This document shows, one piece after another, positions 16,102 to 62,803 of a stretch of 64,000 nt of DNA (the stretch's first letter is position 1; every line of letters begins with the position of its first letter). The notes below the pieces were generated by a model. The model saw only the letters and a program-made list of their open reading frames with translations, searched no databases and was not told the origin of the DNA. The translations under genes and the position numbers were made by a program. This stretch comes from an uncultured OM182 clade bacterium (GTDB lineage Bacteria > Pseudomonadota > Gammaproteobacteria > Pseudomonadales > Azotimanducaceae): the NCBI GenBank assembly GCA_902567095.1, contig CACFLG010000005.1, forward strand, positions 1,267-65,266. The letters are read 5' to 3'.

Positions 16102-16305
16102 TTATTTCTCTATCTCCAATTTTCTTGCCAGCTCAGGAATCATGATCGGGATATCATCTTCGATGGGAAACGCCAATTTGTCGACAAAACAAATCAATTC
16201 ATGACTATCTTGTTGATAGGTTAGATTCCCTTTGCATATAGGACAAACTAATATATCTAAGAGAGTCTTTTCTAGTGCCATGTTTTTAAAACCTTCTTTA
16301 TACAA
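16102..16305 (-). CDS. ycaR: Trm112/YcaR (UPF0434) family small zinc-ribbon protein
   Basis: 67 aa with LLDILVCPICKG...L and DDIPIM motifs, between lpxK and kdsB as in E. coli. Confidence 0.85.
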   Translation of the reverse strand: MYKEGFKNMALEKTLLDILVCPICKGNLTYQQDSHELICFVDKLAFPIEDDIPIMIPELARKLEIEK

Positions 16306-47097: not shown

Positions 47098-47631
47098 ATG
47101 TTCGAATACGTGAACCCTGAAGGGCAATCTTCCATAGAGAATACGCCCTACCGACTTTCAGCATCGATTAAAGGTGCTAACGCAATAAAAATTGGATTCC
47201 TCGCAAACGGCTTTCCCGACTCAGAAAATTTCCTCGCATTGTTAGCAGATGAATTATCAGAGCTTGAGCCGGGTATAGAAAAAGAATTTTACAATAAAGG
47301 GAACGCCTCGATCGCGGCGAGTCCCGAGCTCTTATCAAGCATCACGTCCGATTGTCAGGCGGTAGTAGCGGCCTACGGGCACTGAGGATCTTGTACCACC
47401 GGCACCGTGCGTGACGGAATCAACATCGCAAAGCTCAACATACCCGCTGTAGCCCTGGTGACGGAAGAGTTCTGGCCGCAAGGGGATTTTGTCTCGGTCT
47501 CTTTGGGGATGCCAGAGATTCCAAGGGTAAAGCTACCACACCCCGTCGCGGGATCTGGAACGGAAAACATGAGAATGATTGCAAAATCTGTAGCAACCCA
47601 AGTGATCGCCTCGCTAGACACTAATGCGTGA
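47098..47631 (+). CDS. UGSC-motif selenoprotein, copy 2 (in-frame UGA = Sec at 47383-47385)
   Basis: Track ORFs 47098-47385 and 47407-47631 share one frame. The read-through is GCC TAC GGG CAC TGA GGA TCT TGT ACC, i.e. ...VAAYGH-U-GSCTTG... A GGAGG SD sequence precedes the ATG. It is a paralog of 13399-13920. Confidence 0.8.
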
Positions 47632-49512: not shown

Positions 49513-50727
49513 GTGAATTTGAAATCATGTCTAACATCCATTGCTCTGTTGATCTGCCTGATTCTCTCTGTCGAGGGTCGCGGCGAGACTCAAATACCTT
49601 TCTCCGGTATTGCCTTCACTTCAGAGTTATCACTTGCGAGGGACTCAATGCCCTACACCTTTGGCATCATAGGCGACGAGGACTCTAACAAAAGCACCAA
49701 CTTCAGAAACAATCTACGGGAAAAAGCAGAGGGCAAACAATTAAAAAATGGGGCCTTCCTTTCTGCGAATGCTCAAAACCGCTTAAAGCGAGGGCAGGCA
49801 CTCGCTGTCGCTTTAGCGATCGAACGAGAGAGAATGCTTGAAACCAAACTCAGCGACGACGAGTACCAACTTAGCTTTGACATCGACGCCACCATTTTGG
49901 CCTTTAACTTTGACGAAAAGGCCATAGTCTCGTCACATCCTATTAGGCTGACATTGCTCACATCGTTACCAAGGAAACCCACCGAAAATGATAGGTCGAA
50001 GCTCGCAAATATTATGTTTTTTGGGGACACAGAAAAAGAGTGGTTCGAGAACCTCTCAGAATCTTATTTAATTACAGAATTCATGAAAGCTGTTCAGGAC
50101 ACAGAAATCCGTCAGGCCTGGCGCTCACATATTAGAGTTAAAAATATTGATCTGTCCCCTCAAGCGGCAAAGGTTTTGAAGGATCTTGATCAAGACCCCG
50201 ACTACATGCGACAACTGATCGCGTCCAGCGTCTCCTCATCCATGAGCACACGCCTTATGATTCCAGTGCTGCCATATGTTAAGAGCCAAGCAATCCAGAG
50301 CAGCATGACACTGAAGTTTTTTGAAACAGACCTCATGAATTTTAAAATTCCTGAGGCAAGCTTCCACATAGATCTTACACTTCGAGGATTTGGCTCGAAG
50401 ATTCTCGAAGAGACTAACCGCACTAAGGTTGTGTCTTATATCTCCGGTGTTCAAGTCCAGATAATAGATATAGACTTTGACGCGTCTCGAATGAAGCAGA
50501 AATTCCAAGCGGGAAACGTAAAACGACTGACTTCGGATATGACAGAGAACCTCTGGCATGAGTACGAACTAAGTCTGCTGTCACTGCTTGATCAAATAGT
50601 CATTCAAATCGACAAGCCAGACAAGAAATGGGTAGAAAAAAGAACAACCGGAAAATCAAAAACGAGAGACATTGTTAAATCTCTAAAAAATGTTAAAAAG
50701 CAGGTCATTGATCAGGTAAGGAGTTAA
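49513..50727 (+). CDS. Secreted protein of unknown function (envelope cluster gene A)
   Basis: 404 aa with a GTG start 27 nt after the SDR stop and a hydrophobic N-terminal signal-like segment LTSIALLICLILSVEG. I recognise no motif. Confidence 0.7.
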   Translation: MNLKSCLTSIALLICLILSVEGRGETQIPFSGIAFTSELSLARDSMPYTFGIIGDEDSNKSTNFRNNLREKAEGKQLKNGAFLSANAQNRLKRGQALAVALAIERERMLETKLSDDEYQLSFDIDATILAFNFDEKAIVSSHPIRLTLLTSLPRKPTENDRSKLANIMFFGDTEKEWFENLSESYLITEFMKAVQDTEIRQAWRSHIRVKNIDLSPQAAKVLKDLDQDPDYMRQLIASSVSSSMSTRLMIPVLPYVKSQAIQSSMTLKFFETDLMNFKIPEASFHIDLTLRGFGSKILEETNRTKVVSYISGVQVQIIDIDFDASRMKQKFQAGNVKRLTSDMTENLWHEYELSLLSLLDQIVIQIDKPDKKWVEKRTTGKSKTRDIVKSLKNVKKQVIDQVRS

Positions 50728-50731
50728 AGAA

Positions 50732-51865
50732 ATGAAAGAAAGGATCGCCCGGCCGTCATCAGCTTTTATCTTTCTTATGTTTTTAGTTGGAGTCTTTGCC
50801 TCATTGCTCTGGCAGAGCGCTCAAGCGCAGCAAGTGGAGATCAAGGGAACCTCATCCGCAATACTAAGCGGCAAATGTATCCGAGACAACAACGTTCGAG
50901 GTAAGCGTGACAAAGAGACCTTTGCCGAAACGCTTCAGAGAGCAAAGGTCAACTCAGTAAGAAGACACGTTGCAAACAGCGGAATCGCTGTCGCTAACGC
51001 TTACGACGCGAAACAAGCTGAAATAGCCAGAACTATTGATGACTTCATATTAAATCCAAATATTCGAGTGATTTGCGAGCGAGGCAAGAAGAATCTGCAA
51101 ATCGCCGTGACTGGAGAGCTCAATAAATCCGCGTTTGACAGAACCCTCGCCCTCAACCAAATGGCGGTCAAAGATCGATCAAGATTAACCTCCATCTTTG
51201 TCGCCCGAAGGCAGAGCGAGCTCAAAGCCTTTGACGCGCGAAGAACCGAGATCTCACGAACAACCGAGCTAAGCGAGGCCTCGCAGGCAGCGGAAGTGGG
51301 TGCGGATGGATCCATGAAAGCAGAGGGAATGTCGGTGTCGACTAAAAAGACTGAGTCTGGAGGGAATACAGCATACAAAGCCGACCAGATAAAGTACCAG
51401 ACCTTTCGTCCAGACGGGTTGGAAACCGCCACCAACGAAATTTTTGTCTCCCTCGGTTACCGGCCCATCAACAATTCACAAGTCGAAGCGATTAGCAAAG
51501 GAAAATTTAATGTCGCGCTTTTTGAGGAGGAGTTTGCCTCAAGCGAGAATATCAGCAACGCCACGCTAAGCAGCGCTTTTGAAGCTATCTCGGGCATCAT
51601 CCCTTTGCTAGTTATAGCCCGGCTTGATGTGGGCGCGCCAATAAGAGATCGTGGTAACGAGGAGCCAATCGTAGTGGTGGATGTAAAAGCTCAAGTTTAC
51701 AGATATGACGGGCTTTTCTACGAGACCGTGGGCTCCTACGGACCAGTCCAGATAAAAAGCGCAGGAATAACATCGACCGCGGCAGAAAACAATGCGATAT
51801 TAGAGGCATCTAGGGAGGCAGCCAGTCAACTCGGCGCCCAGCTGCTACAAAACAACATATTTTAG
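50732..51865 (+). CDS. Secreted protein of unknown function (envelope cluster gene B)
   Basis: 377 aa, starting 4 nt after gene A, with a signal peptide ending AQA|QQ. Ala-rich helices (AENNAILEASREAASQLGAQL) recall LPP20-type modules, tentatively. It ends ...LLQNNIF. Confidence 0.7.
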   Translation: MKERIARPSSAFIFLMFLVGVFASLLWQSAQAQQVEIKGTSSAILSGKCIRDNNVRGKRDKETFAETLQRAKVNSVRRHVANSGIAVANAYDAKQAEIARTIDDFILNPNIRVICERGKKNLQIAVTGELNKSAFDRTLALNQMAVKDRSRLTSIFVARRQSELKAFDARRTEISRTTELSEASQAAEVGADGSMKAEGMSVSTKKTESGGNTAYKADQIKYQTFRPDGLETATNEIFVSLGYRPINNSQVEAISKGKFNVALFEEEFASSENISNATLSSAFEAISGIIPLLVIARLDVGAPIRDRGNEEPIVVVDVKAQVYRYDGLFYETVGSYGPVQIKSAGITSTAAENNAILEASREAASQLGAQLLQNNIF

Positions 51866-51876
51866 GGAGGAAAAGC

Positions 51877-52554
51877 ATGAAGAAAATAATAATTATAGGC
51901 CTATCACTTATGTTTTTTGGGTCCATGACCGCCAACGCAATCAAATTGCCGGGCATGCCAGGAAAGTCAGACGACAAGGCAGCGTCTGCGGAAGCCAGTG
52001 AATCCGCTGCGGATTCCCAAGATGCTCTGGTCTCACAATTCAAGACCACACTCGGCTCGATACTTCTTGCTCAAAAGTACCTCTCCGTCGCCTTCGATCA
52101 AGCTGATCAGGCCGCGGCGTTGGATACTGAAATCGCCAGCCTAGAAGGAGACTGCGGAACTGATTGCCTTAAACGAGCGGTGAAGCTTTCAGGCAACGCC
52201 ACGGAATCAATCGGTGAGAAGCTAGACGCAAAGACAGAGATTGGCGCAACCGGCAAAACAAACTACGCACTAGCGCTGCCCCCTTACATAAGGGGAACTC
52301 TATCCGTCAAGGACCTAGCAAGCGCCGCTGGTTCCTGGGGCAAGCAGGCGACCGGAGAAATTAAGAATGCCGGCATGATGGGTGCGACAAAGCTCAAGAA
52401 GAAGCTGGGTACGGGCATGTACGTCGCGCAGCAAACCCCAAAACTCGCAAAGAATTGGGCAAAGGCCACAAAACAGATTTTCACCTACGCTAAATCTTCA
52501 AATATCGACCTAAGCAAGGTTGAAGGCGCAAGCGACTTCGATTTTGGTGACTAG
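51877..52554 (+). CDS. Secreted Ala/Lys-rich protein of unknown function (envelope cluster gene C)
   Basis: 225 aa with signal peptide MKKIIIIGLSLMFFGSMTANA. The C-terminus is ...EGASDFDFGD. Confidence 0.7.
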   Translation: MKKIIIIGLSLMFFGSMTANAIKLPGMPGKSDDKAASAEASESAADSQDALVSQFKTTLGSILLAQKYLSVAFDQADQAAALDTEIASLEGDCGTDCLKRAVKLSGNATESIGEKLDAKTEIGATGKTNYALALPPYIRGTLSVKDLASAAGSWGKQATGEIKNAGMMGATKLKKKLGTGMYVAQQTPKLAKNWAKATKQIFTYAKSSNIDLSKVEGASDFDFGD

Positions 52555-52565
52555 CGCGTAAGCAC

Positions 52566-53834
52566 GTGAAAAAATATCTGATTTTTATGCTCCTGATCTC
52601 TGGCGCTCTGTGCCAGGGAATCAGCGCGCTGGAAGTGACCTACAAAACCATCGAAGTTCTTGGGACCGGAAGCAGTCGTGACGAGGCGGTCACTTGGGCC
52701 CAAATCAACGCAATCCAAATGGTCACCGGAACTAAAATGTCTGCCTCAATCGAAGCAGAACGAGGTCTGTCCTCTGACGAGAAGGGCTCTAGGTTCTTTC
52801 AAAGCTCTTATGTAGATGTAAGCAAAGAGACTGCTGGCGTAATAAGATCCTCAGAGATCAGAAGCGTCCTGTATAACAAAGAATTGCAGGAGTGGAACGC
52901 CATTCTAATGGTCACGGTCCTTGATCTAGAGCGAGCGGGAGGGAGAAAAGCCATTGCCATCTCTGACCTGCGGGCAGAAAAAAGATCGTTAAGACCCTTT
53001 GCTCGTGATTTGACCGGTCTCCTCAAATCCAAACTGACGTCCTCGAGGAAATTCTCGGTGCTTGAGCAAAACCTTGGCACGAAATTTCGTCAGGAGCTGG
53101 ACGCCATAATTGAAAACCCCTTGCTCTCGCTGACAGAAAAGGTGATCGTCAAAAACGGTCTCCCACCCGATCTCGTTCTCGTTGGTAAGGTAGAGGCCGT
53201 TTCCTTGAAACTCACTGAGATTGCGCCCTCCTCCGACCTAATAAGGATAAAAATTCCTGACGTATCCGCAAGGGTTAACTATCAGATCATCGATATGTAT
53301 ACCTCGGAGACAAAGTTTCATGATGTTGCTCGAATCCGTCTGACCCAAGCAGATTTCGCTGCGTCTGGCCAAGCGGTGAATGAAGGAAACATTGGGTCAC
53401 TGTCCGCAGAAATCATTAGCACCAGGATAGTGGACAAGATCCTTGACGCCATATACCCGGTTATTCTTACCTCGATCTCTGAGGACAACCAGGTAAGCCT
53501 TAATTTTGGTTCAGAGTTCAACAAGCAAGGGGATGTCTTCAAAATATACCGGCGAGGGGACAGGATATATGACCCATACACGGAAGAAGTGATGACCTGG
53601 GAAGAGAGCTTTATGGGCGAAGTAAAAGTCACCCGGACACTGCCCAAAGTGAGCTTTGGAGAAATATCGGGAAACGAGCAAGATTTAAATCGAATCAGGG
53701 AAGAGCTAACAGAAAGATCAAGACAATTCGTGGCCTACAAAATAGCTAAAAGCTCAGCATCTAGTTCAAAAATGAAGAAAAAGGTACGTAAGGAAATCAG
53801 TGAAGAGAAGAAAGCTTTGGAGGAAGAATTCTAG
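52566..53834 (+). CDS. Secreted protein with an LPP20-like N-terminus and a CsgG/LpoB/FlgO-like middle domain (envelope cluster gene D)
   Basis: 422 aa, GTG start, signal peptide. The segment AIAISDLRAEK..FARDLTGLLKSKLTSSRKFSVLEQN...DLVLVGKVEAVS matches the CsgG-family pattern from memory (tentative). The C-terminus is KKVRKEISEEKKALEEEF. Confidence 0.7.
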   Translation: MKKYLIFMLLISGALCQGISALEVTYKTIEVLGTGSSRDEAVTWAQINAIQMVTGTKMSASIEAERGLSSDEKGSRFFQSSYVDVSKETAGVIRSSEIRSVLYNKELQEWNAILMVTVLDLERAGGRKAIAISDLRAEKRSLRPFARDLTGLLKSKLTSSRKFSVLEQNLGTKFRQELDAIIENPLLSLTEKVIVKNGLPPDLVLVGKVEAVSLKLTEIAPSSDLIRIKIPDVSARVNYQIIDMYTSETKFHDVARIRLTQADFAASGQAVNEGNIGSLSAEIISTRIVDKILDAIYPVILTSISEDNQVSLNFGSEFNKQGDVFKIYRRGDRIYDPYTEEVMTWEESFMGEVKVTRTLPKVSFGEISGNEQDLNRIREELTERSRQFVAYKIAKSSASSSKMKKKVRKEISEEKKALEEEF

Positions 53835-53878
53835 ATCGGATCTAAAAAAACAAACGAATATTTGAAAGAGGAAAACCT

Positions 53879-55672
53879 ATGCAAATTATTATCACGATAC
53901 TCATTATCGCAGGGCTCGTAATGTTTTTTGGGCCTGAGTCCTGTAGCGATTTAGGTGATACAACCTCAAAATCTGAAGCCGCGTCAGAAGAGACCGAGAC
54001 CTATAGTCGTTCCTCAGAAAGCGGTTCTGATGAAGAGGACCCCTTTTCAGAGGTCAGGCAACTTCTTTCCAACATCTCTGGGCCAACGTCTGAGAGCGAA
54101 ATAGTTAAACGAGCTCAAGCCTCTGCCTTCGTTGCGGAGGGGATATGTCCGAATCCCGTTGAAGACGTTAGAGAACGGGAGTTGGCGTGGTTAAAGCAGG
54201 AATCGCAAAAAGGGGCCAATTATTTAGGTCCAAGATTTACCGAAGACAACGATATCTACTTTGGGAGCGGAACTCCCTCTTTCCAAAAACTTGAAGTCAC
54301 CTCCACGCCCAGCAGAGATGCGGTCATCGCGCGGGATATGCTCTTTGCAATGGCTACTCTTCAGGCAAAAGCAGCGATTATTACTCAAATAAACAACAAC
54401 ATGACTGTTGAGCGTTACCTGAAGCAACCCAGGACCGGGATGACAAATGAGGAGGCGATATACAAAAAGGGAGAGGATTTACTTAACAACAGAAAAGAAA
54501 TTGCCGGAGAGATAGAGGCAGTCAACGAGGAACTAGGACGAGTAAATGAGGCATTACTAGACGCAGATGAAGACTACATGGAGGGAGTTACCTTTGGTGA
54601 TCGGATTGGGTCTTCAATTGACGGTATAAATAAACGACTTAACGAAGAATATAATCGTTCAGACATAACATCAGAAGAGAAAGAGCAGCTAGACATGCTT
54701 AGAGCTCGAGTCCAGACACTGAAAAACAAAAAAGAGACCTTGGAAATCGAACAAGAGAAATTAGCTGACGAAATATTGCCTTATGCTAAGGCTGTTTCTC
54801 AAGAAGAAGCGGTGAATAAGTTAGCCTGGCAAACTCTTTATGGTGTTCAAATTGTTAAACAATTCTTCTGTTTTAATCCCGAAAATCGATCCGCTGCCTT
54901 GCTTATAAGAGCGGTTTGGAGCACCAAGCTTCAGGAAGAAGCCGAAAAAACTCTAAGGAGAGAGCCAGTCACTCTTCAACCCACGGATCCCAACAAGCAG
55001 TTCTTTCAATACCTACTGTCAGACCTTGACGTGCAAAGGCCGACTTTTGGCAGATACGTGGAACCAAATGGCTCCGTGGTTTGGTACGCTGTTAGGCATG
55101 GAATTCCTATCCTAGGTAATAGCGTCGCTAGCACAGAAGCGGTTAAAGCATTTGCAGAGGCAATGCTCTTATCCTCGCTCTACTCGGAGGTCGGGACGCA
55201 GGTTCAAGCGAGCAGAGGCCTAGTCGGAGCAGCTGACGGCAGGGGTGCATTCACTACAGAAACACTAGCCGTAAACATGCGAGAAGAAGCTGAAAACGTT
55301 TTCTTTCCTGTTACTAGCCATCCCGGTATAACAGACAATCCCATGGGCGGTGAAAAATTGGAGTATGCGGTTGCATATGTTAGCGCAGACTCTTTGGCAC
55401 GATCACCCGAGATGGTCAAGCTCATTGAGGAGGCAAACTTTAGATTTCATAAAGATCAAGCTTACGTCAAGGGCCTTATCTCTGGCATGCAAGCGGCAGG
55501 CGCCTCGACAAAAAATGACCCCGAAGCAAGTCGAAGAGGCTTTAATGAGGGTGCCTCGGGGGTGATTTCTGGCGCTCAAGAGAACTCCTCAATCAGCAAT
55601 CAAAAAAGGACCGGACAACCAAAACCGGAAAAAGCGGATCGTTGGGAAAGTGACGTGAATGACGATTTCTAA
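53879..55672 (+). CDS. Membrane-anchored coiled-coil protein of unknown function (envelope cluster gene E)
   Basis: 597 aa with N-terminal TM segment MQIIITILIIAGLVMFFG, an acidic Ser/Glu linker and a heptad-like stretch EEKEQLDMLRARVQTLKNKKETLEIEQEKLADE. The C-terminus is KPEKADRWESDVNDDF. Confidence 0.7.
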   Translation: MQIIITILIIAGLVMFFGPESCSDLGDTTSKSEAASEETETYSRSSESGSDEEDPFSEVRQLLSNISGPTSESEIVKRAQASAFVAEGICPNPVEDVRERELAWLKQESQKGANYLGPRFTEDNDIYFGSGTPSFQKLEVTSTPSRDAVIARDMLFAMATLQAKAAIITQINNNMTVERYLKQPRTGMTNEEAIYKKGEDLLNNRKEIAGEIEAVNEELGRVNEALLDADEDYMEGVTFGDRIGSSIDGINKRLNEEYNRSDITSEEKEQLDMLRARVQTLKNKKETLEIEQEKLADEILPYAKAVSQEEAVNKLAWQTLYGVQIVKQFFCFNPENRSAALLIRAVWSTKLQEEAEKTLRREPVTLQPTDPNKQFFQYLLSDLDVQRPTFGRYVEPNGSVVWYAVRHGIPILGNSVASTEAVKAFAEAMLLSSLYSEVGTQVQASRGLVGAADGRGAFTTETLAVNMREEAENVFFPVTSHPGITDNPMGGEKLEYAVAYVSADSLARSPEMVKLIEEANFRFHKDQAYVKGLISGMQAAGASTKNDPEASRRGFNEGASGVISGAQENSSISNQKRTGQPKPEKADRWESDVNDDF

Positions 55673-56093
55673 GTCCTCAGCAATTCTTTTTACGCTCTGC
55701 TTAACAGCCTGCTCGGAGAATAGAAGCGATATATATCCGGGCGGGCACACCCTCCCTGCCATTGATTTTCTTGAATCCCTTATAGAGGATGAGAGTAGAT
55801 TTAGTGAGGGCTATTACCAAAAAGGTGACAAACTCTACTTTCTAGTTGAAGTAAAAGCTGATTCCTACGGTCCCATGATGTCTGTAAAAGCCGAAGCAGA
55901 AAGCACGCTTACGATAGGGCAAGGGCTTTTAGCTTACGCAGAAAAAAAATGCGAGGGAATTTCAAAAATTCAGACCAAGATGACGGAGACCATTAAACTC
56001 CTCTCGAAAAATTTTGAGGGTTTCTACCGCGAGTTGTGGAGCACTTCACTTTATCCGATAGATGAAAAAATCGAATCGATCTGTAAAAGCTAG
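55659..56093 (+). CDS. Small lipoprotein of unknown function (envelope cluster gene F)
   Basis: 144 aa with lipobox LTAC|S. Its ATG overlaps gene E by 14 nt. Confidence 0.65.
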   Translation: MTISKSSAILFTLCLTACSENRSDIYPGGHTLPAIDFLESLIEDESRFSEGYYQKGDKLYFLVEVKADSYGPMMSVKAEAESTLTIGQGLLAYAEKKCEGISKIQTKMTETIKLLSKNFEGFYRELWSTSLYPIDEKIESICKS

Positions 56094-56649
56094 GCTCTCT
56101 GCCTTGCTTGCTCTGTCGTTACTCTCTGTCAGTGCTTGGAGCCAACTAGCGTGGATAAAAAAAGAGACCAATCTACTATCGGAAGCCAAGACAAGCGCAA
56201 CGGTTCAGGCTCTCTTGTCGCCAAAAACCAAGGCCACGGTTCTCACACGAAAAGGCATCTGGGTACAGATTCAGGCAAACGGAGAAAACGGCTGGGTCAA
56301 GCTGTCGTCTCTTCGGTTTGGAGATAGCGGTAATTACAGAACCTCTTTAAGTGATCTCAAGACAGGACGGGAAGGCGCTGGCAATAACGTCGCAGCCACG
56401 GGCGCCAGAGGACTAGAGGCTGAAACCCTCGCTCTAGCCAAAGCAGACTACGAGGGCTTCTCTCAGTTCAAAGACATCTCACAAGACACCGCCTTATTGA
56501 TCGAACTCCGACAAATTAAAATGACGCGAGACATATCAGCGATATCTTTCAATCCGAGGGCAGTAAACGAAAGCACTGTCTTTGAAGCAGGCAACAAGCA
56601 AACGACTAAGAAACCAAAAAGAAGAACTGAGATCGACGATGAATTTTAA
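56062..56649 (+). CDS. Secreted SH3b-domain protein (envelope cluster gene G)
   Basis: 195 aa with signal peptide LLALSLLSVSAWS and an SH3_3-like segment ATVLTRKGIWVQIQANGENGWVKLSSLRF. The C-terminus is TTKKPKRRTEIDDEF. Confidence 0.7.
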   Translation: MKKSNRSVKARLSALLALSLLSVSAWSQLAWIKKETNLLSEAKTSATVQALLSPKTKATVLTRKGIWVQIQANGENGWVKLSSLRFGDSGNYRTSLSDLKTGREGAGNNVAATGARGLEAETLALAKADYEGFSQFKDISQDTALLIELRQIKMTRDISAISFNPRAVNESTVFEAGNKQTTKKPKRRTEIDDEF

Positions 56650-57424
56650 GTCTTTTAAAATCGCGATTTTGATTGGTCTCTGCTGGACGTTGTTTTCGGG
56701 AGGGATCACTGTTTATGGGGCAGCAGGAGATGAAGAATCGGAAATTGGGAGGGAGGTCGTGGCGCTTTACCTGGGCGCGGCGTCCCTCATCAATGACAAA
56801 AAAATCCTCGAATACGTGAACACCCTTGGTCAGCATATCGTGAGCTTTGTTCCTAAATCGGAGCAAACCAGAGACTGGAGGTTTGGTGTGATCGAATCGA
56901 GCGGTGTGAATGCTTTTGCAGCCCCTGGAGGCTACATCCTAATTACTAGAGGACTTCTGAACCTAACTGAAACCGAGGATCAGCTGGCCTTTATCTTAGC
57001 GCACGAGATTTCCCACGTCGTTAAGCGGCATCATCTCAAGGTAATACAAAAACAAAAGCAAATGTCACGCTTGCTCTCCAAGATGCAATCCAATATGAAA
57101 GAATCAAACGAGCTATTCCAAGATCTCAGCGGCGTTTATCGAGATTTTGCAACAAAAGGGTTGGATAAAAACGCAGAGCATGAGGCGGACCTTGACGGCT
57201 CCGTGTTAGCGGCGCGGGCAGGATTTAATTTGATGTCGGGACAGGAACTGCTCTTCATCCTCTCCGAGTTCTACCGAGACGGGAACGAAGCCCAGCTGTT
57301 TTTTAAAACGCATCCCCATCCTCTAAGCCGCGTTGATAAACTCTCAGAGTCGTTGCCCACCCAGATCGAAAAATTTGCCGTGGATTCTGACCCGAGCTCA
57401 GGGTACCGAGGCCTAAAGCGGTGA
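56639..57424 (+). CDS. Secreted M48-family zinc metalloprotease (envelope cluster gene H)
   Basis: NAFAAPGGYILITRGLL...QLAFILAHEISHVVKRHH (HExxH). I chose the ATG at 56639 (MNFKSFKIAILIGL... signal peptide) over the track start at 56582. It overlaps gene G by 11 nt. Confidence 0.8.
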   Translation: MNFKSFKIAILIGLCWTLFSGGITVYGAAGDEESEIGREVVALYLGAASLINDKKILEYVNTLGQHIVSFVPKSEQTRDWRFGVIESSGVNAFAAPGGYILITRGLLNLTETEDQLAFILAHEISHVVKRHHLKVIQKQKQMSRLLSKMQSNMKESNELFQDLSGVYRDFATKGLDKNAEHEADLDGSVLAARAGFNLMSGQELLFILSEFYRDGNEAQLFFKTHPHPLSRVDKLSESLPTQIEKFAVDSDPSSGYRGLKR

Positions 57425-58989
57425 AAGGTCTTCTCGCTCGGCTAGGGCTTTTATCCCGAAAAATGCGAACCGGTTTTTTTCTTGGTCTCTTCATTTTATT
57501 TTCGGTTTTCTCATCGATTTTGTTTCACTTCCAGTTCGATCTTCTTGATATCGAAAGCCTCCAATACGATGAGGGCGCTATCGATACCGCGTTTGATTGG
57601 AGATTTAAAATGCCGGACGCCAGCCCGAGCTTCCTCATCGTTGAAATTGACGAGGCCTCGCTCCACCACTTTTCTGAAGAGTACGGCAGGTGGCCTTGGC
57701 CAAGAGATATCTTTGGAGAGACGCTAGCAGGGATATCAGAGTATGACCCAAAGTCGGTTACCTTTAACATCATGTTCTCTGACCCTGATAGGCTAGACCC
57801 CGATTCTGATGCACTCTTTGATTTTATAATTGCGGAGACGGATAACGTCATCTTTCCTGCAACGCGTTTGTCAAAGCAAAACGATGAGCTTAGTGAGGTC
57901 AAAGCAAGCCAGCTTTCGTTTTCTCGAGACATAGAGGAAGACCGAACTGTTGCCATATTAGTGACTCAGTTCGGGGCTGCCACTACCAAAATGGCTATCA
58001 ATAACCTGTTGATTGATGATGACGGCATAGTTCGACGTTTTGCGGCGCTGCATTCTGAGCCTGGTTTCTCGCTACTAACGCTTCCTGGAAAGATTGCAGA
58101 GCTCGAATCACGATCATTAACAGACACTGAGTACCTCATAAACTGGCCAGAAGACATTAACAATTATGAATCTATATCGTTTAAGGTTTTATATGAAGCT
58201 CTGGAAAATGGTGATAAGTCCGTGCTCACAAGTTTATCAGACGAACACATACTGTTTGGGTTGACCGCACCTGGCTTGTCTTTCCAGCGACCCACTCCCG
58301 TGTCGGCCTTCACGGAGGACACGCGCATACTCACGGCCGTTGCCGACAATATAATTCAAGGGAATGGGCTCAGCACGATCCCACCCGCCCTGATTCTATT
58401 TCTTGCTATATTGATGTTCGGAGTGCTCTCGCTTTGCTTTATTTTGAAAGTTGATGATGGGTTAATTGACGTGATCTTCATTGGCCTTGAAACCAGCTCA
58501 ATCCTGATCACGATCGGTTCGATGAGTTTCACGTCCTATGCGATCGACTTAAGCTTTCTGATATTTTCTGGGCTCATCTACTTCGCAATATGTAAAACCT
58601 ACGACATACCCGTTAGATCATCTGAACGAGCCTACCGAAATTTCTTCGACGGAAAAACATCGGAGAAATACGCCTATTTTTCTGTTTTTATTTATCAGTC
58701 TGGGCAGCTAGACCAACTTCTGCAGTTCCTGAAAATAAAGTCTCCGGCGAGCGAGCGTATTTTCTTGGTAGACAATTTTATTTCGTCGCAGAGTTTGTTT
58801 CAGGAAGAGATTGTTGAGAGCGAAGTGTTGGTTTTCATGCATAGCGAGCCTCTTGCAGAATCTGAGGTGATAGATCAATTTTCTGCTACTCTTAATTTCT
58901 CTGTCGGCAAAAATTTTCAATCCGATGCGCTGCGGGCGATTGTCGGGTTATACAATGAAATGCTTGGACCTTCGTCGGTTGAGAACTAG
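57421..58989 (+). CDS. CHASE2-domain membrane protein without a recognisable output domain (envelope cluster gene I)
   Basis: 522 aa with a GTGA overlap with gene H. After the N-terminal TM segment comes FLIVEIDEASLHHFSEEYGRWPWPRDIFGETL...FNIMFSDPD, the CHASE2 signature. Then come ~3 TM helices and a ~130-aa tail with no kinase, cyclase or GGDEF motifs that I can see. Confidence 0.75.
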   Translation: MKGLLARLGLLSRKMRTGFFLGLFILFSVFSSILFHFQFDLLDIESLQYDEGAIDTAFDWRFKMPDASPSFLIVEIDEASLHHFSEEYGRWPWPRDIFGETLAGISEYDPKSVTFNIMFSDPDRLDPDSDALFDFIIAETDNVIFPATRLSKQNDELSEVKASQLSFSRDIEEDRTVAILVTQFGAATTKMAINNLLIDDDGIVRRFAALHSEPGFSLLTLPGKIAELESRSLTDTEYLINWPEDINNYESISFKVLYEALENGDKSVLTSLSDEHILFGLTAPGLSFQRPTPVSAFTEDTRILTAVADNIIQGNGLSTIPPALILFLAILMFGVLSLCFILKVDDGLIDVIFIGLETSSILITIGSMSFTSYAIDLSFLIFSGLIYFAICKTYDIPVRSSERAYRNFFDGKTSEKYAYFSVFIYQSGQLDQLLQFLKIKSPASERIFLVDNFISSQSLFQEEIVESEVLVFMHSEPLAESEVIDQFSATLNFSVGKNFQSDALRAIVGLYNEMLGPSSVEN

Positions 58990-58997
58990 GGCCACGC

Positions 58998-60851
58998 TTA
59001 CCTGCTTTTCCAGAAATCAGTGACCCTCTCGATCTCCTCAAGGCTTACCATCGGAGCCTGAAAACGGGTAAGACCCTTCGCCGCTGGATTAAGAAATAAT
59101 CCGTCTCCCTTCCCCTGCAATGCCTCTGCACCTTTCTGGTTCAGTATGACGCGTGAGTCAACATTTGAGCTCACGCGAAACGCCAGCCTCCCGGGCACAT
59201 TGGTCTTTATCAGGCCCGTGATAATGTCTGCCGTAGGTCGCTGTGTCGCCATGATAAGATGAATCCCCGCCGCCCTCGCCTTTTGGGCAAGGCGCACAAT
59301 CGGATCTTCGATAATACTTCCTTCCTGCATCAGCAGATCAGCGAGTTCGTCAATGACCACTACCATGTGAGAAAGTTTATTACGATTGTCTTCCAATTCA
59401 TTGAATTCTATTATATTTCTAGAATTGCTCTCATTTAAAAGGCGGTATCGCTCATCCATCATTTCGGTTAATTCGTTTAGCCGATCGATTGTCTGATCTG
59501 TCTCAGTAATGACCTCTCCGTCAAGGTGAGGCAGACCACGGAAATGAGAGAACTCCACCATTTTGGGATCGATCAAAACAAGCCTCAAGCCTTCGGGGGA
59601 TGCATGGTAAAGCAGCGAAACCAGCAGAGAGTTTAAAGCGATTGACTTACCCGACCCGGTAGACCCTGCAACTAAGAGGTGAGGCATTTGAGACAAATCA
59701 ACACAAACCGGAGAACCCAATGTGTCGATTCCTATTCTTAGAGGTAACTGCATCTCTGCACTTTCACGGGAGGTGTTAGTAATTAATTCGCGAAGCCCAA
59801 TGGTGCGCCTGTTTTTAACAGGGACCTCTACTCCTATCTTGCCTTCCCTGCCAACAATATCCGCGTTAAGTCGGACCGCGTCGTCCGGATGACCCAAGAA
59901 ACGGCTTATATCAGGCAGATGTCTCTCAACCTCTGAAATCTTTGTGCCCCGCTTTGGCGCCACAAAATGGGTCGCGACCATCGGCCCCACGACCGTCTCA
60001 TCTACGTCAGCCTTGACCCCGAACTGCTTCAACGCCGCCACTAGACGAGCGCTAGATTCTTTTAATTCTTCCTCGTCTCTATTCTCCTCATCAGAGGGTC
60101 TCAGAAAATCAATGTTCGGCCGCTCGTCTCCATATTCAGGGACGGGAGCGGGAACCGGCTGAGGCCTATCTTTTTGATCCGGCTCCTTCACAGGTTCAGG
60201 AGGTCGGGAGATATCTTCTGATCCCCTCTCACCCCCGGCAACCTTATCTCCGCCGGAGTGCTCAGAACCACCGACCGGTTTCTCGTCACTACCAAGGTCA
60301 TTGTTTTTATTCTCGTCTTTTTTAGATTCGTCTCTAGATGGCGGTGGTGGAGCTGAACTACCCGAGAAGGCTGAGCGCAGATAACCGATCGTCAAGGAGA
60401 CCCATTTTTTTACCTCTCTGGGAGAAAGACAAAACGCAAACACCAGGAGTAAAAGGAGCAGCGAGATAGGTCTTCCCAGAACCGATTCTAAAATTCCCCA
60501 GCCAGAATTTCCTATTGCTCCGCCCATGCCCGATGAACCAAAAATAGCTGAAGCGATAAAAATGAGCCCAGCGAGCCTGTACTGGTCTAGACTGCTCATC
60601 TTGCGACCTTTAATCTGGACGAAAGCGACGTAACCTGTAACTACAGGAAAAAACCAGGCGCCAGTCCCCAGCATACCCATCAAAGCGGAGCCGACTAGGC
60701 TGCCCATAGAGCCAAGAAATTCGGCTTGGCCTTGATGCACCTGCAGAAGACAAAGCCCAAAGTAACCTGACAACGCAAGCAGCGTGTACGGGCTAACGAG
60801 AATCTGTCTTAATAGATTTTCTTTTTTTTTCCTAGCCAATGGTTCCCTCAC
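58998..60851 (-). CDS. ftsK: FtsK/SpoIIIE-family DNA translocase lacking the C-terminal gamma (KOPS/XerD) domain
   Basis: 617 aa with a 4-TM N-terminal domain, a Pro/Glu-rich linker, and a motor with Walker A AGSTGSGKS and Walker B VVVIDELADL. The ORF stops at ...EEIERVTDFWKSR, right after the beta domain. Confidence 0.8.
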   Translation of the reverse strand: MREPLARKKKENLLRQILVSPYTLLALSGYFGLCLLQVHQGQAEFLGSMGSLVGSALMGMLGTGAWFFPVVTGYVAFVQIKGRKMSSLDQYRLAGLIFIASAIFGSSGMGGAIGNSGWGILESVLGRPISLLLLLLVFAFCLSPREVKKWVSLTIGYLRSAFSGSSAPPPPSRDESKKDENKNNDLGSDEKPVGGSEHSGGDKVAGGERGSEDISRPPEPVKEPDQKDRPQPVPAPVPEYGDERPNIDFLRPSDEENRDEEELKESSARLVAALKQFGVKADVDETVVGPMVATHFVAPKRGTKISEVERHLPDISRFLGHPDDAVRLNADIVGREGKIGVEVPVKNRRTIGLRELITNTSRESAEMQLPLRIGIDTLGSPVCVDLSQMPHLLVAGSTGSGKSIALNSLLVSLLYHASPEGLRLVLIDPKMVEFSHFRGLPHLDGEVITETDQTIDRLNELTEMMDERYRLLNESNSRNIIEFNELEDNRNKLSHMVVVIDELADLLMQEGSIIEDPIVRLAQKARAAGIHLIMATQRPTADIITGLIKTNVPGRLAFRVSSNVDSRVILNQKGAEALQGKGDGLFLNPAAKGLTRFQAPMVSLEEIERVTDFWKSR

Positions 60852-62621: not shown

Positions 62622-62709
62622 ACTCTCCGCCTAGCGTCAGGTATCGAGTTTGCCTCAAATGAGGAAGATACGAAAGACGATCACCAAAACACCTGCTATC
62701 ATCGATCAC

Positions 62710-62803
62710 GGAAGAGCAATGCACCCGGTGGTGCGCGCGGCCTTCAAAGCCGTTGAGCTGCTGATAAAGTGGCTGGAGGGTTCGACTCCTTCCTCTTCCG
62801 CCA
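62710..62803 (+). tRNA. selC: tRNA-Sec (anticodon UCA)
   Basis: Hand fold: acceptor GGAAGAG/CTCTTCC with a G discriminator and encoded CCA. The 6-bp D-stem TGCACC/GGTGCG has the 4-nt loop CGGT, which is a tRNA-Sec hallmark. Anticodon stem GCGGC/GCCGT carries loop CTTCAAA. A long variable arm has the 6-bp stem AGCTGC/GTGGCT. The T-arm is GAGGG-TTCGACT-CCTTC. The 5' and 3' ends resemble E. coli selC (GGAAGA...TTCGACTCC...TCTTCCGCCA). Confidence 0.85.

What the first reader, a model, noticed from the sequence alone, without database searches (positions are those of the whole stretch)
49513..58989. Nine-gene, translationally coupled envelope operon of unknown function ending in SH3b, an M48 protease and an output-less CHASE2 sensor
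Genes A-I are all on the plus strand. The junctions between consecutive genes are 4, 11, 11 and 44 nt gaps, then overlaps of 14, 32, 11 and 4 nt.
- Every product has a signal peptide, a lipobox or an N-terminal anchor.
- No product has an ATPase, glycosyltransferase or secretin motif that I can see.
- The only recognisable domains are a CsgG/LpoB-like segment (D), SH3b (G), an M48 HExxH protease (H) and CHASE2 (I).

This looks like a self-contained periplasmic or outer-membrane assembly with its own protease and sensor. I cannot map it to any described secretion, fibre, flagellar-ring or lipoprotein-trafficking system. It starts 27 nt after UGSC cassette 2 and may share a transcript with it.
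Basis: partly seen in the sequence, partly recalled or inferred. Interest (0 to 1): 0.8.

Follow-up and report, generated by a model that had tools for sequence, protein, structure and literature searches.

The report
Uncharacterised FlgT-like periplasmic envelope operon
Nine overlapping genes for secreted proteins in an uncultured marine gammaproteobacterium combine a widespread but unstudied five-gene module, with two proteins built like the flagellar ring protein FlgT, and a conserved SH3b/protease/CHASE2 trio; the two share an acidic C-terminal tag, and the function is unknown but now testable.

Summary

The cluster is a composite of two modules.
- **Module 1 (A-E, plus small lipoprotein F).** It occurs in Gamma-, Beta- and Deltaproteobacteria. 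D and E also occur next to LpoB/YcfL in Campylobacterota and Azospirillum. Francisella has LpoB next to an E relative. AlphaFold models of D and B best match the Vibrio flagellar H-ring protein FlgT. E is a divergent DUF6844 protein, related to Francisella FTT_1539c (PDB 4QVR, function unknown). A has no Pfam or PDB relative.
- **Module 2 (G-H-I).** It also occurs alone in other Proteobacteria.

The two modules sit together in two gene orders (ABCDEFGHI and GHI-ABCDEF) in 20 of 24 informative loci.

D, E and G end in a basic stretch followed by [DE][DE][DE][F/W]. G carries this tail only when it is linked to A-E (18 of 18 linked loci, 0 of 4 stand-alone).

Best reading (about 40%): a non-flagellar, outer-membrane-proximal periplasmic scaffold built on H-ring principles. 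Its subunits and the SH3b adaptor dock through C-terminal tails, and the adaptor recruits a protease and a membrane sensor.

No characterised system matches. Function is not established.

The parts
49513..50727 (+). Gene A. Exported 404-aa protein of a family that has no Pfam model and no solved relative.
   Evidence: ORF. Orthologues sit next to B in L001-L003, L007, L008, L016, L019 and L023-L025. The family has 365 clusters (50% identity) at E<=1e-3 among 1.84 billion representatives. Pfam hits: 0 of 51 members. No PDB relative.
50732..51865 (+). Gene B. Exported 377-aa protein with a FlgT-like fold: an LPP20/FlgT_N-like domain plus a CsgG/TolB-N-like domain.
   Evidence: AlphaFold model with pLDDT 76.5. 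Best Foldseek PDB match is 8z5n_0 (a chain of the Vibrio LPHT-ring entry, taken to be FlgT), E 1.1e-5 over the full length. Next come CC_3750, CT253, CsgG, GNA1162, Tip-alpha and LptE. One orthologue weakly hits FlgT_N.
51877..52554 (+). Gene C. Exported 225-aa protein that ends in DFDFGD.
   Evidence: ORF. Orthologues always lie between B and D or E. The C-terminus is usually [DE]F[DE]F(GD). No Pfam or NCBIfam hit.
52566..53834 (+). Gene D. Exported 422-aa three-domain FlgT-like protein (LPP20-like N domain, CsgG/LpoB/FlgT_M-like middle domain, FlgT_C/TsaP-like C domain) with a basic linker and an EEEF terminus.
   Evidence: AlphaFold model with pLDDT 70. Foldseek: FlgT 3w1e at E 5.1e-18 and 8z5n_0 at 3.5e-16, both full length, then CT253, CsgG, TolB and PelC. 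A profile hit links the C domain to TsaP 6ve2_O, E 0.002. Orthologues hit CsgG, LpoB and FlgT_M.
53879..55672 (+). Gene E. 597-aa protein with an N-terminal anchor and a coiled-coil insert. It is a divergent DUF6844-family member and ends in NDDF.
   Evidence: hhalign of the E family against syntenic DUF6844 proteins: probability 96.4%, E 1.2e-9. An E-family HMM hits the L003 DUF6844 protein at 1.2e-11. The DUF6844 profile hits PDB 4qvr (FTT_1539c) at 1.4e-50. No direct Pfam hit for the window protein.
55659..56093 (+). Gene F. Small lipoprotein of 144 aa with lipobox LTAC and a Cys near the C-terminus.
   Evidence: ORF. Detectable homologues only in close relatives and L024. Small exported proteins of similar size, too divergent to align, occupy the same position after E in L002, L015, L016, L019, L023 and L025.
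56062..56649 (+). Gene G. Exported SH3b protein of 195 aa with a basic linker and a DDEF terminus. Proposed adaptor between the two modules.
   Evidence: SH3_3 at E 5.8e-7 and SH3_4 at 5.4e-6. Every G linked to A-E ends in [DE][DE][DE][FW] (18 distinct tails). The four stand-alone G proteins end in a YLP-type motif instead.
56639..57424 (+). Gene H. Exported M48 zinc metalloprotease of 261 aa. It resembles the BepA protease domain and has no TPR domain.
   Evidence: Peptidase_M48 at E 3.1e-25. Partial match to the NCBIfam BepA model (95.6 bits against a cutoff of 570). HEISH at nt 57002-57016 and EHEAD at nt 57176-57190.
57421..58989 (+). Gene I. CHASE2 membrane protein of 522 aa: one transmembrane segment, a periplasmic CHASE2 domain, three transmembrane segments, then about 128 cytoplasmic residues with no known output domain.
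   Evidence: CHASE2 at E 2.9e-33, residues 46-337. Hydrophobic segments. The C-terminal region is unconserved across the family. About 300 relatives, mostly 520-600 aa with CHASE2 as the only domain.
53820..53831 (+). C-terminal tag of D (EEEF, preceded by KKKVRK...).
   Evidence: E419 is invariant and F422 nearly invariant in the D alignment down to 30% identity. 24 of 27 distinct D tails are acidic-aromatic.
55658..55669 (+). C-terminal tag of E (NDDF).
   Evidence: The terminal F is invariant in alignments A4 and A5. 18 of 19 distinct E tails are acidic-aromatic. The Campylobacterota, Desulfobacteraceae and Azospirillum DUF6844 proteins also end in DDF.
56635..56646 (+). C-terminal tag of G (DDEF).
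   Evidence: present in 18 of 18 G proteins linked to A-E and absent from 4 of 4 stand-alone G proteins.

Best explanation
The operon encodes a non-flagellar envelope assembly that sits in the periplasm close to the outer membrane.

**Core.** The ancient core is the D+E pair (a FlgT-like protein plus a DUF6844 protein). Here it works with A, B (a second FlgT-like protein), C and the small lipoprotein F.

**Assembly (inferred).** By analogy with the Vibrio H-ring, FlgT forms a ring there and the flexible C-terminal loops of neighbouring subunits insert into adjacent rings. I propose that B and D oligomerise into a ring or lattice scaffold. The conserved tails of D, E and G (and the related tail of C) would act as docking peptides that plug into a shared site on the scaffold. 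Each tail is a lysine/arginine-rich linker ending in [DE][DE][DE][F/W]-COOH. The docking site is most likely on A or B, which lack the tail.

**Recruitment (inferred).** G is an SH3b adaptor and probably binds peptidoglycan. It has acquired the same tail and so recruits the otherwise autonomous SH3b/M48/CHASE2 trio. This would give the scaffold a resident metalloprotease (H) for turnover or quality control, and an inner-membrane CHASE2 protein (I) that senses or anchors.

**Shown:** gene structure, export signals, domain and fold assignments, co-occurrence in two gene orders, and the distribution of the tail.

**Inferred:** oligomeric scaffold, tail docking, roles of H and I, and the physiological function (envelope architecture or outer membrane-peptidoglycan coupling).
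For: - **Fold.** D and B models give FlgT as the best full-length PDB match. The C domain of D matches the ring-forming TsaP. D orthologues hit CsgG, LpoB and FlgT_M.
- **H-ring precedent.** In the Vibrio H-ring, the C-terminal loops of FlgP and FlgO insert into the neighbouring ring (10.64898/2025.12.02.691832).
- **Tail distribution.** Acidic-aromatic tails occur in 24 of 27 D, 18 of 19 E and 18 of 22 G distinct tails. They occur in 0 of the A, B, F, H and I tails. The four G exceptions are exactly the four stand-alone trios.
- **Co-occurrence.** The modules lie together in two different gene orders in 20 of 24 informative loci.
- **Accessory genes in relatives are all envelope-related.** These are LpoB, YcfL and LPP20 lipoproteins and an SLT lytic transglycosylase, PhoQ/OmpR-like genes plus SLT, and MlaFED-like genes.
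- **Francisella (non-flagellated; my own knowledge).** Its relative of E, FTT_1539c, and the adjacent gene product FTT_1538c are outer-membrane-vesicle-associated.
- **No flagellar genes** appear among the annotated genes of the window or the cluster-adjacent genes of the loci; the one exception, an flhD gene about 10 kb from a stand-alone trio in L017/L018, is not cluster-adjacent.
Against: - There is no experimental datum, and no multimer model could be run, so the ring or lattice is pure analogy.
- Foldseek TM-scores are low (0.25-0.30) because the domain orientations differ. pLDDT is only 70-76.
- FlgT-like, CsgG-like and LpoB-like folds serve very different functions (pore, enzyme activator, scaffold).
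- The folds of A, C and F are unknown.
- The tail could instead be a protease degron, a membrane or peptidoglycan anchor, or a sorting signal.
- Module 1 works without G-H-I nearby in four lineages.
- The co-occurrence sample is dominated by related marine Gammaproteobacteria.
Confidence: 0.4

Rival explanations
1. Peptidoglycan-synthesis or envelope-growth regulator. The D+E pair would work with outer-membrane activators of penicillin-binding proteins. A-B-C would be functional replacements for the TPR-lipoprotein/YcfL/LpoB trio, and the SH3b, M48 and lytic-transglycosylase partners would act on the cell wall.
For: - In Nitratiruptor and other Campylobacterota, and on an Azospirillum plasmid, D and E sit directly after YcfL and LpoB-family genes.
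- In Francisella, FTT_1540c is annotated LpoB and lies next to FTT_1539c, the E relative.
- SLT genes recur nearby.
- G carries SH3b.
- D orthologues hit the LpoB model.
Against: - The Pfam LpoB model covers many lipoproteins that are not PBP1B activators.
- No PBP gene is linked in any locus.
- Neither D nor B is a lipoprotein with the long N-terminal linker that defines LpoB.
- A, B and C show no sequence relation to YcfL, LpoB or TPR proteins.
Confidence: 0.2
2. Periplasmic part of a trans-envelope transport machine. The inner-membrane motor would vary by lineage: an FtsK-like ATPase here, and MlaFED-like MCE transporters in others.
For: - A gamma-less FtsK/SpoIIIE ATPase ends 8 nt after I on the opposite strand.
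- The same kind of gene follows F on the same strand in L002 and precedes G in L025.
- That gene diverges together with D-I between the window and L015.
- MlaE-MlaF-MlaD genes are embedded in or directly follow the cluster in six loci.
Against: - FtsK is absent from the available flanks of most type-2 loci.
- It could be the housekeeping ftsK kept nearby by ancestral synteny.
- No outer-membrane channel, secretin or cargo gene is identifiable.
- The Mla genes are absent from this cluster and the rest of the window was not checked for them; in the loci they are confined to one subgroup.
Confidence: 0.12
3. Two unrelated operons (A-F and G-I) that merely abut, with no functional link.
For: Each module exists without the other in some genomes.
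Against: - They are adjacent in two different orders in 20 of 24 informative loci.
- Overlapping reading frames join F/G, G/H and H/I.
- G carries the D/E-type tail only when linked to A-E, 18 of 18 against 0 of 4.
Confidence: 0.06
4. An accessory ring of the flagellar motor (a true H-ring or basal-disk system).
For: FlgT is the best structural match for D and B.
Against: - No flagellar gene lies among the annotated genes of the window or next to the cluster in any of the 66 loci.
- No FlgO, FlgP, MotX or MotY genes are linked.
- Relatives occur in Francisella, which has no flagellum (my own knowledge), with the operon described.
- Pfam FlgT models are not reached at their gathering thresholds.
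Confidence: 0.03

Closest known systems
FlgT, the H-ring protein of the Vibrio polar flagellar motor (PDB 3W1E, 8Z5N)
   Same: D has the same three-domain build (LPP20-like N, CsgG/TolB-N-like M, beta-barrel C). B has the first two domains. Both are periplasmic and non-lipidated. In the H-ring, C-terminal loops of partner proteins glue neighbouring rings together, which resembles the conserved tails here.
   Different: No sequence-level membership, since the Pfam FlgT models fall below threshold. No linkage to flgO, flgP, motX, motY or any flagellar gene. Two paralogues plus A, C and E as partners. D carries a basic linker and an acidic-aromatic terminus.
Francisella tularensis operon FTT_1537c-FTT_1540c, including FTT_1539c (DUF6844, PDB 4QVR)
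   Same: FTT_1539c matches the DUF6844 proteins that occupy the E position at E 1.4e-50. The LpoB-family gene FTT_1540c lies next to it, as in the Nitratiruptor and Azospirillum variants, where a D-like gene follows. The products are outer-membrane-vesicle-associated antigens, and an FTT_1538c insertion mutant is mildly attenuated.
   Different: Function is unknown there too. That variant pairs with LpoB rather than with A-B-C, and no SH3b/M48/CHASE2 trio is reported. I could not read the FTT_1538c sequence, so its identity as a D homologue is inferred from synteny. Window E is a divergent, longer form with a coiled-coil insert and does not hit 4QVR directly.
CsgG / LpoB / PelC / GNA1162(DUF799) / HpaA superfamily of outer-membrane-associated periplasmic proteins
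   Same: The middle domains of D and B share this fold. Several members (CsgG, PelC) form rings under the outer membrane.
   Different: D and B lack a lipobox. No curli (csgA/B/E/F) or pel genes are linked. There is no evidence for the transmembrane hairpins of CsgG.
BepA / LoiP-type periplasmic M48 metalloproteases
   Same: H has the M48 fold with HExxH and the downstream Glu ligand, plus a signal peptide. Its best NCBIfam match is BepA.
   Different: H has 261 aa and lacks the TPR domain of BepA (95.6 bits against a cutoff of 570). It is always paired with an SH3b protein and a CHASE2 protein, and that trio is not described in the literature searched.
CHASE2 transmembrane sensors (cyclases, histidine kinases)
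   Same: I has the same periplasmic CHASE2 domain and membrane topology, including the conserved YGRWPWPR motif.
   Different: No cyclase, kinase or GGDEF output domain is present. Only a variable cytoplasmic tail of about 128 aa follows. A large subfamily of 520-600 aa shares this architecture.
TsaP, the ring around the type IV pilus secretin (PDB 6VE2)
   Same: The C-terminal domain of D aligns with the FlgT_C-like domains of TsaP.
   Different: No LysM domain is present and no secretin or pilus genes are linked.

Membership tests
FlgT (flagellar H-ring) | Three-domain FlgT_N / FlgT_M / FlgT_C fold | tested here: met
   The D model matches 3w1e at E 5.1e-18 and 8z5n_0 at 3.5e-16 over about 420 columns. 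B matches 8z5n_0 at 1.1e-5. TM-scores are low (0.25-0.30) and pLDDT is 70-76.
FlgT (flagellar H-ring) | Sequence membership (Pfam FlgT_N/M/C at the gathering threshold) | tested here: not met
   Window D and B get no hit. D orthologues reach FlgT_M at 28.4 and 19.7 bits against a cutoff of 31.2. One B orthologue reaches FlgT_N at E 0.0087.
FlgT (flagellar H-ring) | Genomic and functional association with the flagellar genes flgO, flgP, motX and motY | tested here: not met
   No flagellar gene lies among the annotated genes of the window or next to the cluster in the loci; an flhD gene lies about 10 kb from a stand-alone trio in L017/L018.
CsgG curli secretion channel | CsgG-fold domain | tested here: met
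   D orthologues hit Pfam CsgG at 2.4e-13 and 1.3e-10. Foldseek matches 4uv2 and 4uv3 at about 1e-6. Window D itself gets no Pfam hit.
CsgG curli secretion channel | Lipoprotein signal and linkage to csgE, csgF, csgA and csgB | tested here: not met
   D has a signal peptide without a lipobox. No curli genes occur in any locus.
LpoB (PBP1B activator) | Outer-membrane lipoprotein with a long disordered N-terminal linker and an LpoB globular domain | tested here: not met
   No lipobox in D or B. LpoB model hits occur only in D orthologues and are weaker than the CsgG hits. Separate, genuine LpoB-family genes sit beside D and E in variant loci.
DUF6844 (Pfam PF20891; FTT_1539c, PDB 4QVR) | Match to the DUF6844 model | tested here: inconclusive
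   Window E gets no direct Pfam hit at E<=1 and its family profile does not hit 4qvr. However, hhalign to syntenic DUF6844 proteins gives 96.4% probability and E 1.2e-9, and the E HMM hits the L003 DUF6844 protein at 1.2e-11. The position next to D and the DDF terminus are also shared.
Peptidase M48 | M48 domain with HExxH and a downstream Glu ligand | tested here: met
   PF01435 at E 3.1e-25. HEISH at residue 122 and EHEAD at residue 180.
BepA (BAM-assisting protease) | M48 domain plus a C-terminal TPR domain, about 480 aa | tested here: not met
   H has 261 aa. NF052400 scores 95.6 bits against a cutoff of 570, and only model positions 44-155 are matched.
CHASE2 sensor proteins | Periplasmic CHASE2 domain between transmembrane segments | tested here: met
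   PF05226 at E 2.9e-33, residues 46-337. Hydrophobic segments.
CHASE2 sensor proteins | Cytoplasmic output domain (cyclase, kinase or GGDEF) | tested here: not met
   No Pfam or NCBIfam hit beyond CHASE2. The C-terminal 128 aa are unconserved in the family alignment.
Bacterial SH3 (SH3b) | SH3_3 / SH3_4 domain | tested here: met
   G hits SH3_3 at 30.0 bits (cutoff 27) and SH3_4 at 26.5 bits (cutoff 24.1).
Anti-phage defence systems (PADLOC) | Match to any PADLOC model | tested here: not met
   Only chance-level hits, with E >= 0.002.

The most novel reading that the evidence does not exclude
The cluster encodes a previously undescribed envelope organelle. It would be a flagellum-independent periplasmic ring or disk, built from FlgT-like paralogues, a DUF6844 protein and two families that have no Pfam model. 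A dedicated C-terminal 'acidic-aromatic' docking code would hold it together. The same code would recruit interchangeable accessory units: an SH3b/M48/CHASE2 surveillance trio, lytic transglycosylases, MCE lipid transporters or an FtsK-like motor. If so, flagellar H-ring proteins would be one specialised branch of a broader and older family of outer-membrane-supporting scaffolds. That family would also be present in Francisella, Campylobacterota and gut Sutterellaceae.
Probability: 0.3. Interest if true: 0.8.

Novelty: new variant of a known kind. Interest (0 to 1): 0.62.

Why it matters
- **Breadth.** Module 1 is not a curiosity of one metagenome bin. Its A family alone has at least 365 clusters at 50% identity. 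Its D/E core reaches Campylobacterota, Alphaproteobacteria and human-gut Sutterellaceae, and an E relative next to LpoB occurs in the pathogen Francisella, where that protein is an abundant, immunodominant vesicle protein of unknown function with an orphan crystal structure.
- **Missing annotation.** No paper in the searched library describes the module. Pfam has no model for A, B, C or F.
- **Testable hypotheses.** The FlgT-like folds, the shared C-terminal tag and the conditional tagging of the SH3b adaptor turn a block of hypothetical proteins into concrete hypotheses: who docks to whom, and what the protease cuts.
- **A second unstudied unit.** The SH3b/M48/CHASE2 trio is itself a widespread three-gene unit that has not been studied.
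- **Possible wider significance.** If the scaffold reading is right, it bears on how flagellar outer rings evolved and on how Gram-negative bacteria brace or monitor the outer membrane.

Tried and rejected
- **Family libraries.** Pfam, NCBIfam and PADLOC on all nine proteins gave nothing beyond SH3b, M48 and CHASE2. A defence-system reading was rejected.
- **Internal comparisons.** Profile-profile comparisons of A, B, D and E with each other showed no relationship.
- **PDB sequence searches.**
  - The A and B profiles gave only chance hits.
  - The window-type E profile hit only coiled coils.
  - G hit only weak SH3 matches.
- **Pfam on the A family.** 51 members, 0 hits.
- **Regulatory and repeat scans.**
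  - The promoter and terminator scan showed no enrichment over shuffles, so it gives no information about transcript boundaries.
  - Rfam found only tRNA-Sec.
  - The DNA repeat search found nothing meaningful.
- **Literature.**
  - CHASE2 with M48, SH3 or peptidase: nothing relevant.
  - DUF6844: only a Francisella antigen table.
  - YcfL with LpoB: nothing functional on the pairing.
- **Plasmid collection.** One hit, on an Azospirillum plasmid, which proved useful as variant 2.
- **Degenerate cyclase idea.** I considered whether the C-terminus of I is a degenerate cyclase. I dropped this because the region is unconserved, and I did not run the profile comparison with A8.
- **B's C-terminal F as part of the tag.** Rejected, because it is not conserved.
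- **FtsK-like ATPase as a fixed component.** Not accepted. It is adjacent in only three arrangements and absent from the available flanks of most type-2 loci.

Full report
**1. Observation**

Recomputed junctions are gaps of 4, 11, 11 and 44 nt, followed by overlaps of 14, 32, 11 and 4 nt. A starts 27 nt after the stop of a short-chain dehydrogenase.

- A, B, C, D, G and H begin with signal-peptide-like segments.
- F has a lipobox (LTAC).
- E has an N-terminal hydrophobic anchor.
- I has one N-terminal and three later hydrophobic segments.

Pfam confirms three domains:
- SH3_3/SH3_4 in G.
- Peptidase_M48 in H, with an intact HEISH...EHEAD site.
- CHASE2 in I.

A to F have no Pfam, NCBIfam or PADLOC hit. 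The last 128 residues of I are cytoplasmic, match nothing, and are not conserved among relatives. "Output-less" is therefore a fair description. Promoter and terminator scans do not exceed shuffled controls, so operon status rests on gene spacing and conservation.

**2. Setting**

The window is ordinary chromosome from a Gram-negative bacterium that uses selenocysteine. It carries:
- RNase E, an MsbA-LpxK fusion, ClpB and LolC/E-like genes.
- SelA, SelB and tRNA-Sec.
- A UGSC selenoprotein with an in-frame TGA.

The closest contigs are marine metagenome bins labelled Gammaproteobacteria. Directly downstream, convergent and 8 nt away, lies a 617-aa FtsK/SpoIIIE ATPase that lacks the gamma domain. 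An M50B-like peptidase gene follows it.

**3. The cluster is two modules**

*Module 1.* A genome scan with the D family found A-B-C-D-E in four further groups:
- A Porticoccaceae MAG (L002).
- A Desulfobacteraceae MAG (L003).
- Duodenibacillus (L007).
- Sutterella (L008, with the order A-B-C-E-D).

None of these has G-H-I within the flanks. In Campylobacterota (L004-L006) and on an Azospirillum plasmid, only D and E persist. There they follow a TPR lipoprotein, a YcfL (DUF1425) protein and an LpoB-family lipoprotein. In Nitratiruptor, LPP20 lipoproteins and an MltC-like lytic transglycosylase come next.

*Module 2.* Relatives of the CHASE2 protein I show that SH3b + M48 + CHASE2 also occurs as a stand-alone trio, in either order. 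This is seen in Gallionella and other Proteobacteria (L017/18, L020-L022).

*The two together.* The modules are joined in two different orders:
- Type 1, ABCDEFGHI: the window, L009-L011, L015 and L024.
- Type 2, GHI-ABCDE(F): L016, Halieaceae L019, L023 and L025.

A metagenome scan with the B family added 40 loci. Among the 26 loci with at least 3.6 kb on one side, 20 carry G/H/I adjacent. Two of the other six (L001, L061) are cut on the informative side, which leaves four true negatives out of 24. The sample is biased towards related marine Gammaproteobacteria.

**4. What the proteins are**

- **D.** AlphaFold2 on a 14-sequence alignment gave pLDDT 70. The best PDB matches are full-length FlgT (3W1E, E 5e-18) and a chain of the Vibrio LPHT-ring entry 8Z5N, taken to be FlgT (3.5e-16). 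CT253, CsgG, TolB-N, GNA1162, HpaA and PelC follow. The C domain also aligns by sequence profile with TsaP. D orthologues hit CsgG, LpoB and FlgT_M.
- **B.** On a 24-sequence alignment the model reached pLDDT 76.5. The best match is again that chain of the LPHT-ring entry 8Z5N. LPP20/Tip-alpha-like and CsgG-like proteins follow.
- **E.** It is homologous to the DUF6844 proteins that take its place in other loci (hhalign 96.4%, E 1.2e-9; HMM 1.2e-11). Those proteins match the orphan structure 4QVR of Francisella FTT_1539c at 1.4e-50.
- **A.** The family has 365 clusters at 50% identity, with no Pfam hit in 51 members and no PDB relative.
- **C and F.** Both remain unassigned.

**5. A shared C-terminal tag**

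D, E and G end in a Lys/Arg-rich stretch followed by [DE][DE][DE][F/W]-COOH. In the window these termini are EEEF, NDDF and DDEF. C usually ends in [DE]F[DE]F(GD).

Counts across distinct tails:

| Family | Acidic-aromatic terminus |
|---|---|
| D | 24 of 27 |
| E | 18 of 19 |
| G | 18 of 22 |
| A, B, F, H, I | none |

- The three D exceptions are the LpoB-linked variants.
- The four G exceptions are exactly the four stand-alone trios, whose G proteins end in a YLP-type motif instead.
- G therefore carries the module-1 tag only where it is linked to module 1. This is the strongest single argument that the two modules work together and that G is the coupling adaptor.

**6. Mechanistic reading**

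In the Vibrio H-ring, FlgT forms a 26-mer ring. The flexible C-terminal loops of FlgP and FlgO insert into the neighbouring ring (10.64898/2025.12.02.691832).

By analogy, I propose the following:
- B and D form an outer-membrane-proximal periplasmic scaffold.
- The tagged tails of D, E, G and perhaps C dock onto it.
- G brings the M48 protease and the CHASE2 membrane protein to the scaffold.

All of this is inference. No multimer modelling or experiment was possible.

The accessory genes seen in relatives are all envelope-related, but they differ between lineages:
- A PhoQ/OmpR-like pair plus SLT and three unknown genes (type 2a).
- MlaE-MlaF-MlaD, embedded in or directly after the cluster in six loci (type 2b).
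- LpoB/YcfL/LPP20/SLT (variant 2).

This fits a general envelope scaffold better than a single enzymatic pathway. It also keeps alive the rivals of peptidoglycan-synthesis control and trans-envelope transport.

A flagellar role is unlikely. No flagellar genes are linked to the cluster. A relative of the core exists in Francisella, which has no flagellum (my own knowledge). There FTT_1540c is LpoB, FTT_1539c is the DUF6844 vesicle antigen, and an FTT_1538c insertion mildly attenuates virulence.

**7. Other features**

Per-gene identities between the window and L015 fall into three blocks:

| Genes | Identity |
|---|---|
| B, C | 79-83% |
| D, E, G, H, I, FtsK-like ATPase | 30%, 27%, 38%, 58%, 60%, 50% (F not detectable) |
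| M50B-like peptidase, luciferase-like oxidoreductase | 83%, 95% |

The block from D to FtsK therefore behaves as a replaceable or fast-evolving cassette. Such a cassette might be expected for mutually fitting or exposed components, and it hints that the ATPase belongs with it.

The same kind of ATPase follows F in L002 and precedes G in L025. It is absent from the available flanks of most other loci.

**8. Verdict**

This is a genuine, co-conserved envelope gene set that matches no characterised system. It is, however, a fusion of two modules, it has clear fold-level kinship to flagellar H-ring and CsgG-like proteins, and its boundaries vary between lineages.
- I rate it a new variant of a known kind, namely outer-membrane-associated periplasmic scaffolds of the FlgT/CsgG/LPP20 superfamily.
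- There is about a 30% chance that it is a distinct, undescribed envelope organelle.

Noticed in passing
window 58998-60851 (- strand): A 617-aa FtsK/SpoIIIE ATPase with N-terminal membrane segments, a Pro/Glu-rich linker and alpha and beta domains, but no gamma (KOPS-binding) domain. It converges on gene I with only 8 nt between the two stops. A similar gene follows the F-like gene on the same strand in L002 and lies two genes upstream of G in L025. It may be a dedicated paralogue linked to the cluster, or simply the local ftsK.
   Followed up: partly
window 52566-60851 compared with L015: A mosaic divergence pattern. B and C are 79-83% identical to L015, and the downstream M50B-like and luciferase-like genes are 83-95% identical. 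D, E, G, H, I and FtsK are only 27-60% identical, and F is undetectable. The D-to-FtsK block looks like an exchanged or fast-evolving cassette. E is also only 41% identical in L001, where D is 82%.
   Followed up: partly
L020-L022 and L017/L018 (stand-alone trios): SH3b + M48 + CHASE2 is a conserved three-gene unit in its own right, found in both gene orders. Stand-alone SH3b proteins end in a different conserved motif (..YLP..). No paper describing this trio was found.
   Followed up: partly
L016, L043, L052, L056, L057, L066: MlaE-MlaF-MlaD (MCE-type ABC transporter) genes lie on the same strand. They come directly after E, are inserted between C and D (L043, and directly after C in L056, where the contig ends before D), or in L016 lie about 2.5 kb downstream of E (MlaE and the ATPase only; contig end). 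This points to a link with lipid trafficking in one subgroup.
   Followed up: partly
L019, L023, L025, L037, L047, L061: Type-2 loci continue after F with an OmpR-type response regulator, a PhoQ-like histidine kinase, an unknown 217-aa protein, an SLT lytic transglycosylase and two more unknown exported proteins. This makes about 15 co-linear genes.
   Followed up: partly
window 55659 and 56639: The ATG start codons of F and H are formed inside the codons for the acidic tails of E (..AAT GAT GAC TTT TAA) and G (..GAC GAT GAA TTT TAA). The tag sequence and the translational overlap therefore constrain each other.
   Followed up: yes
window 47098-47631 (+), 62709-62802 (+), 35740-39014 (+): The UGSC-family protein is a single reading frame with an in-frame TGA at 47383-47385 (..AAYGH-U-GSC..). 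That makes it a selenoprotein that ORF listing splits in two. The tRNA-Sec gene and selA and selB lie in the same window.
   Followed up: partly
window 16298-19159 (- strand): A 953-aa ORF fuses an MsbA-like ABC exporter (ABC_membrane + ABC_tran) to LpxK (tetraacyldisaccharide 4'-kinase).
   Followed up: no
window 42451-44694 (+): A 747-aa ORF fuses HMG-CoA reductase to a GHMP-kinase domain (mevalonate-pathway type). A NUDIX-domain protein follows.
   Followed up: no
L062-L064: A distant group (B about 28% identical) has A-B-C without a detectable D or E. Instead, a Cys-rich protein of about 340 aa and a 445-aa protein with a proline-rich end follow. Phage- or integrase-like ORFs lie upstream in L063.
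   Followed up: no
window 49513 and L009-L011: Automatic gene calls on related contigs start gene A at an internal Met (359 aa), which removes the signal peptide. Orthologue alignment supports the longer GTG-initiated form.
   Followed up: yes
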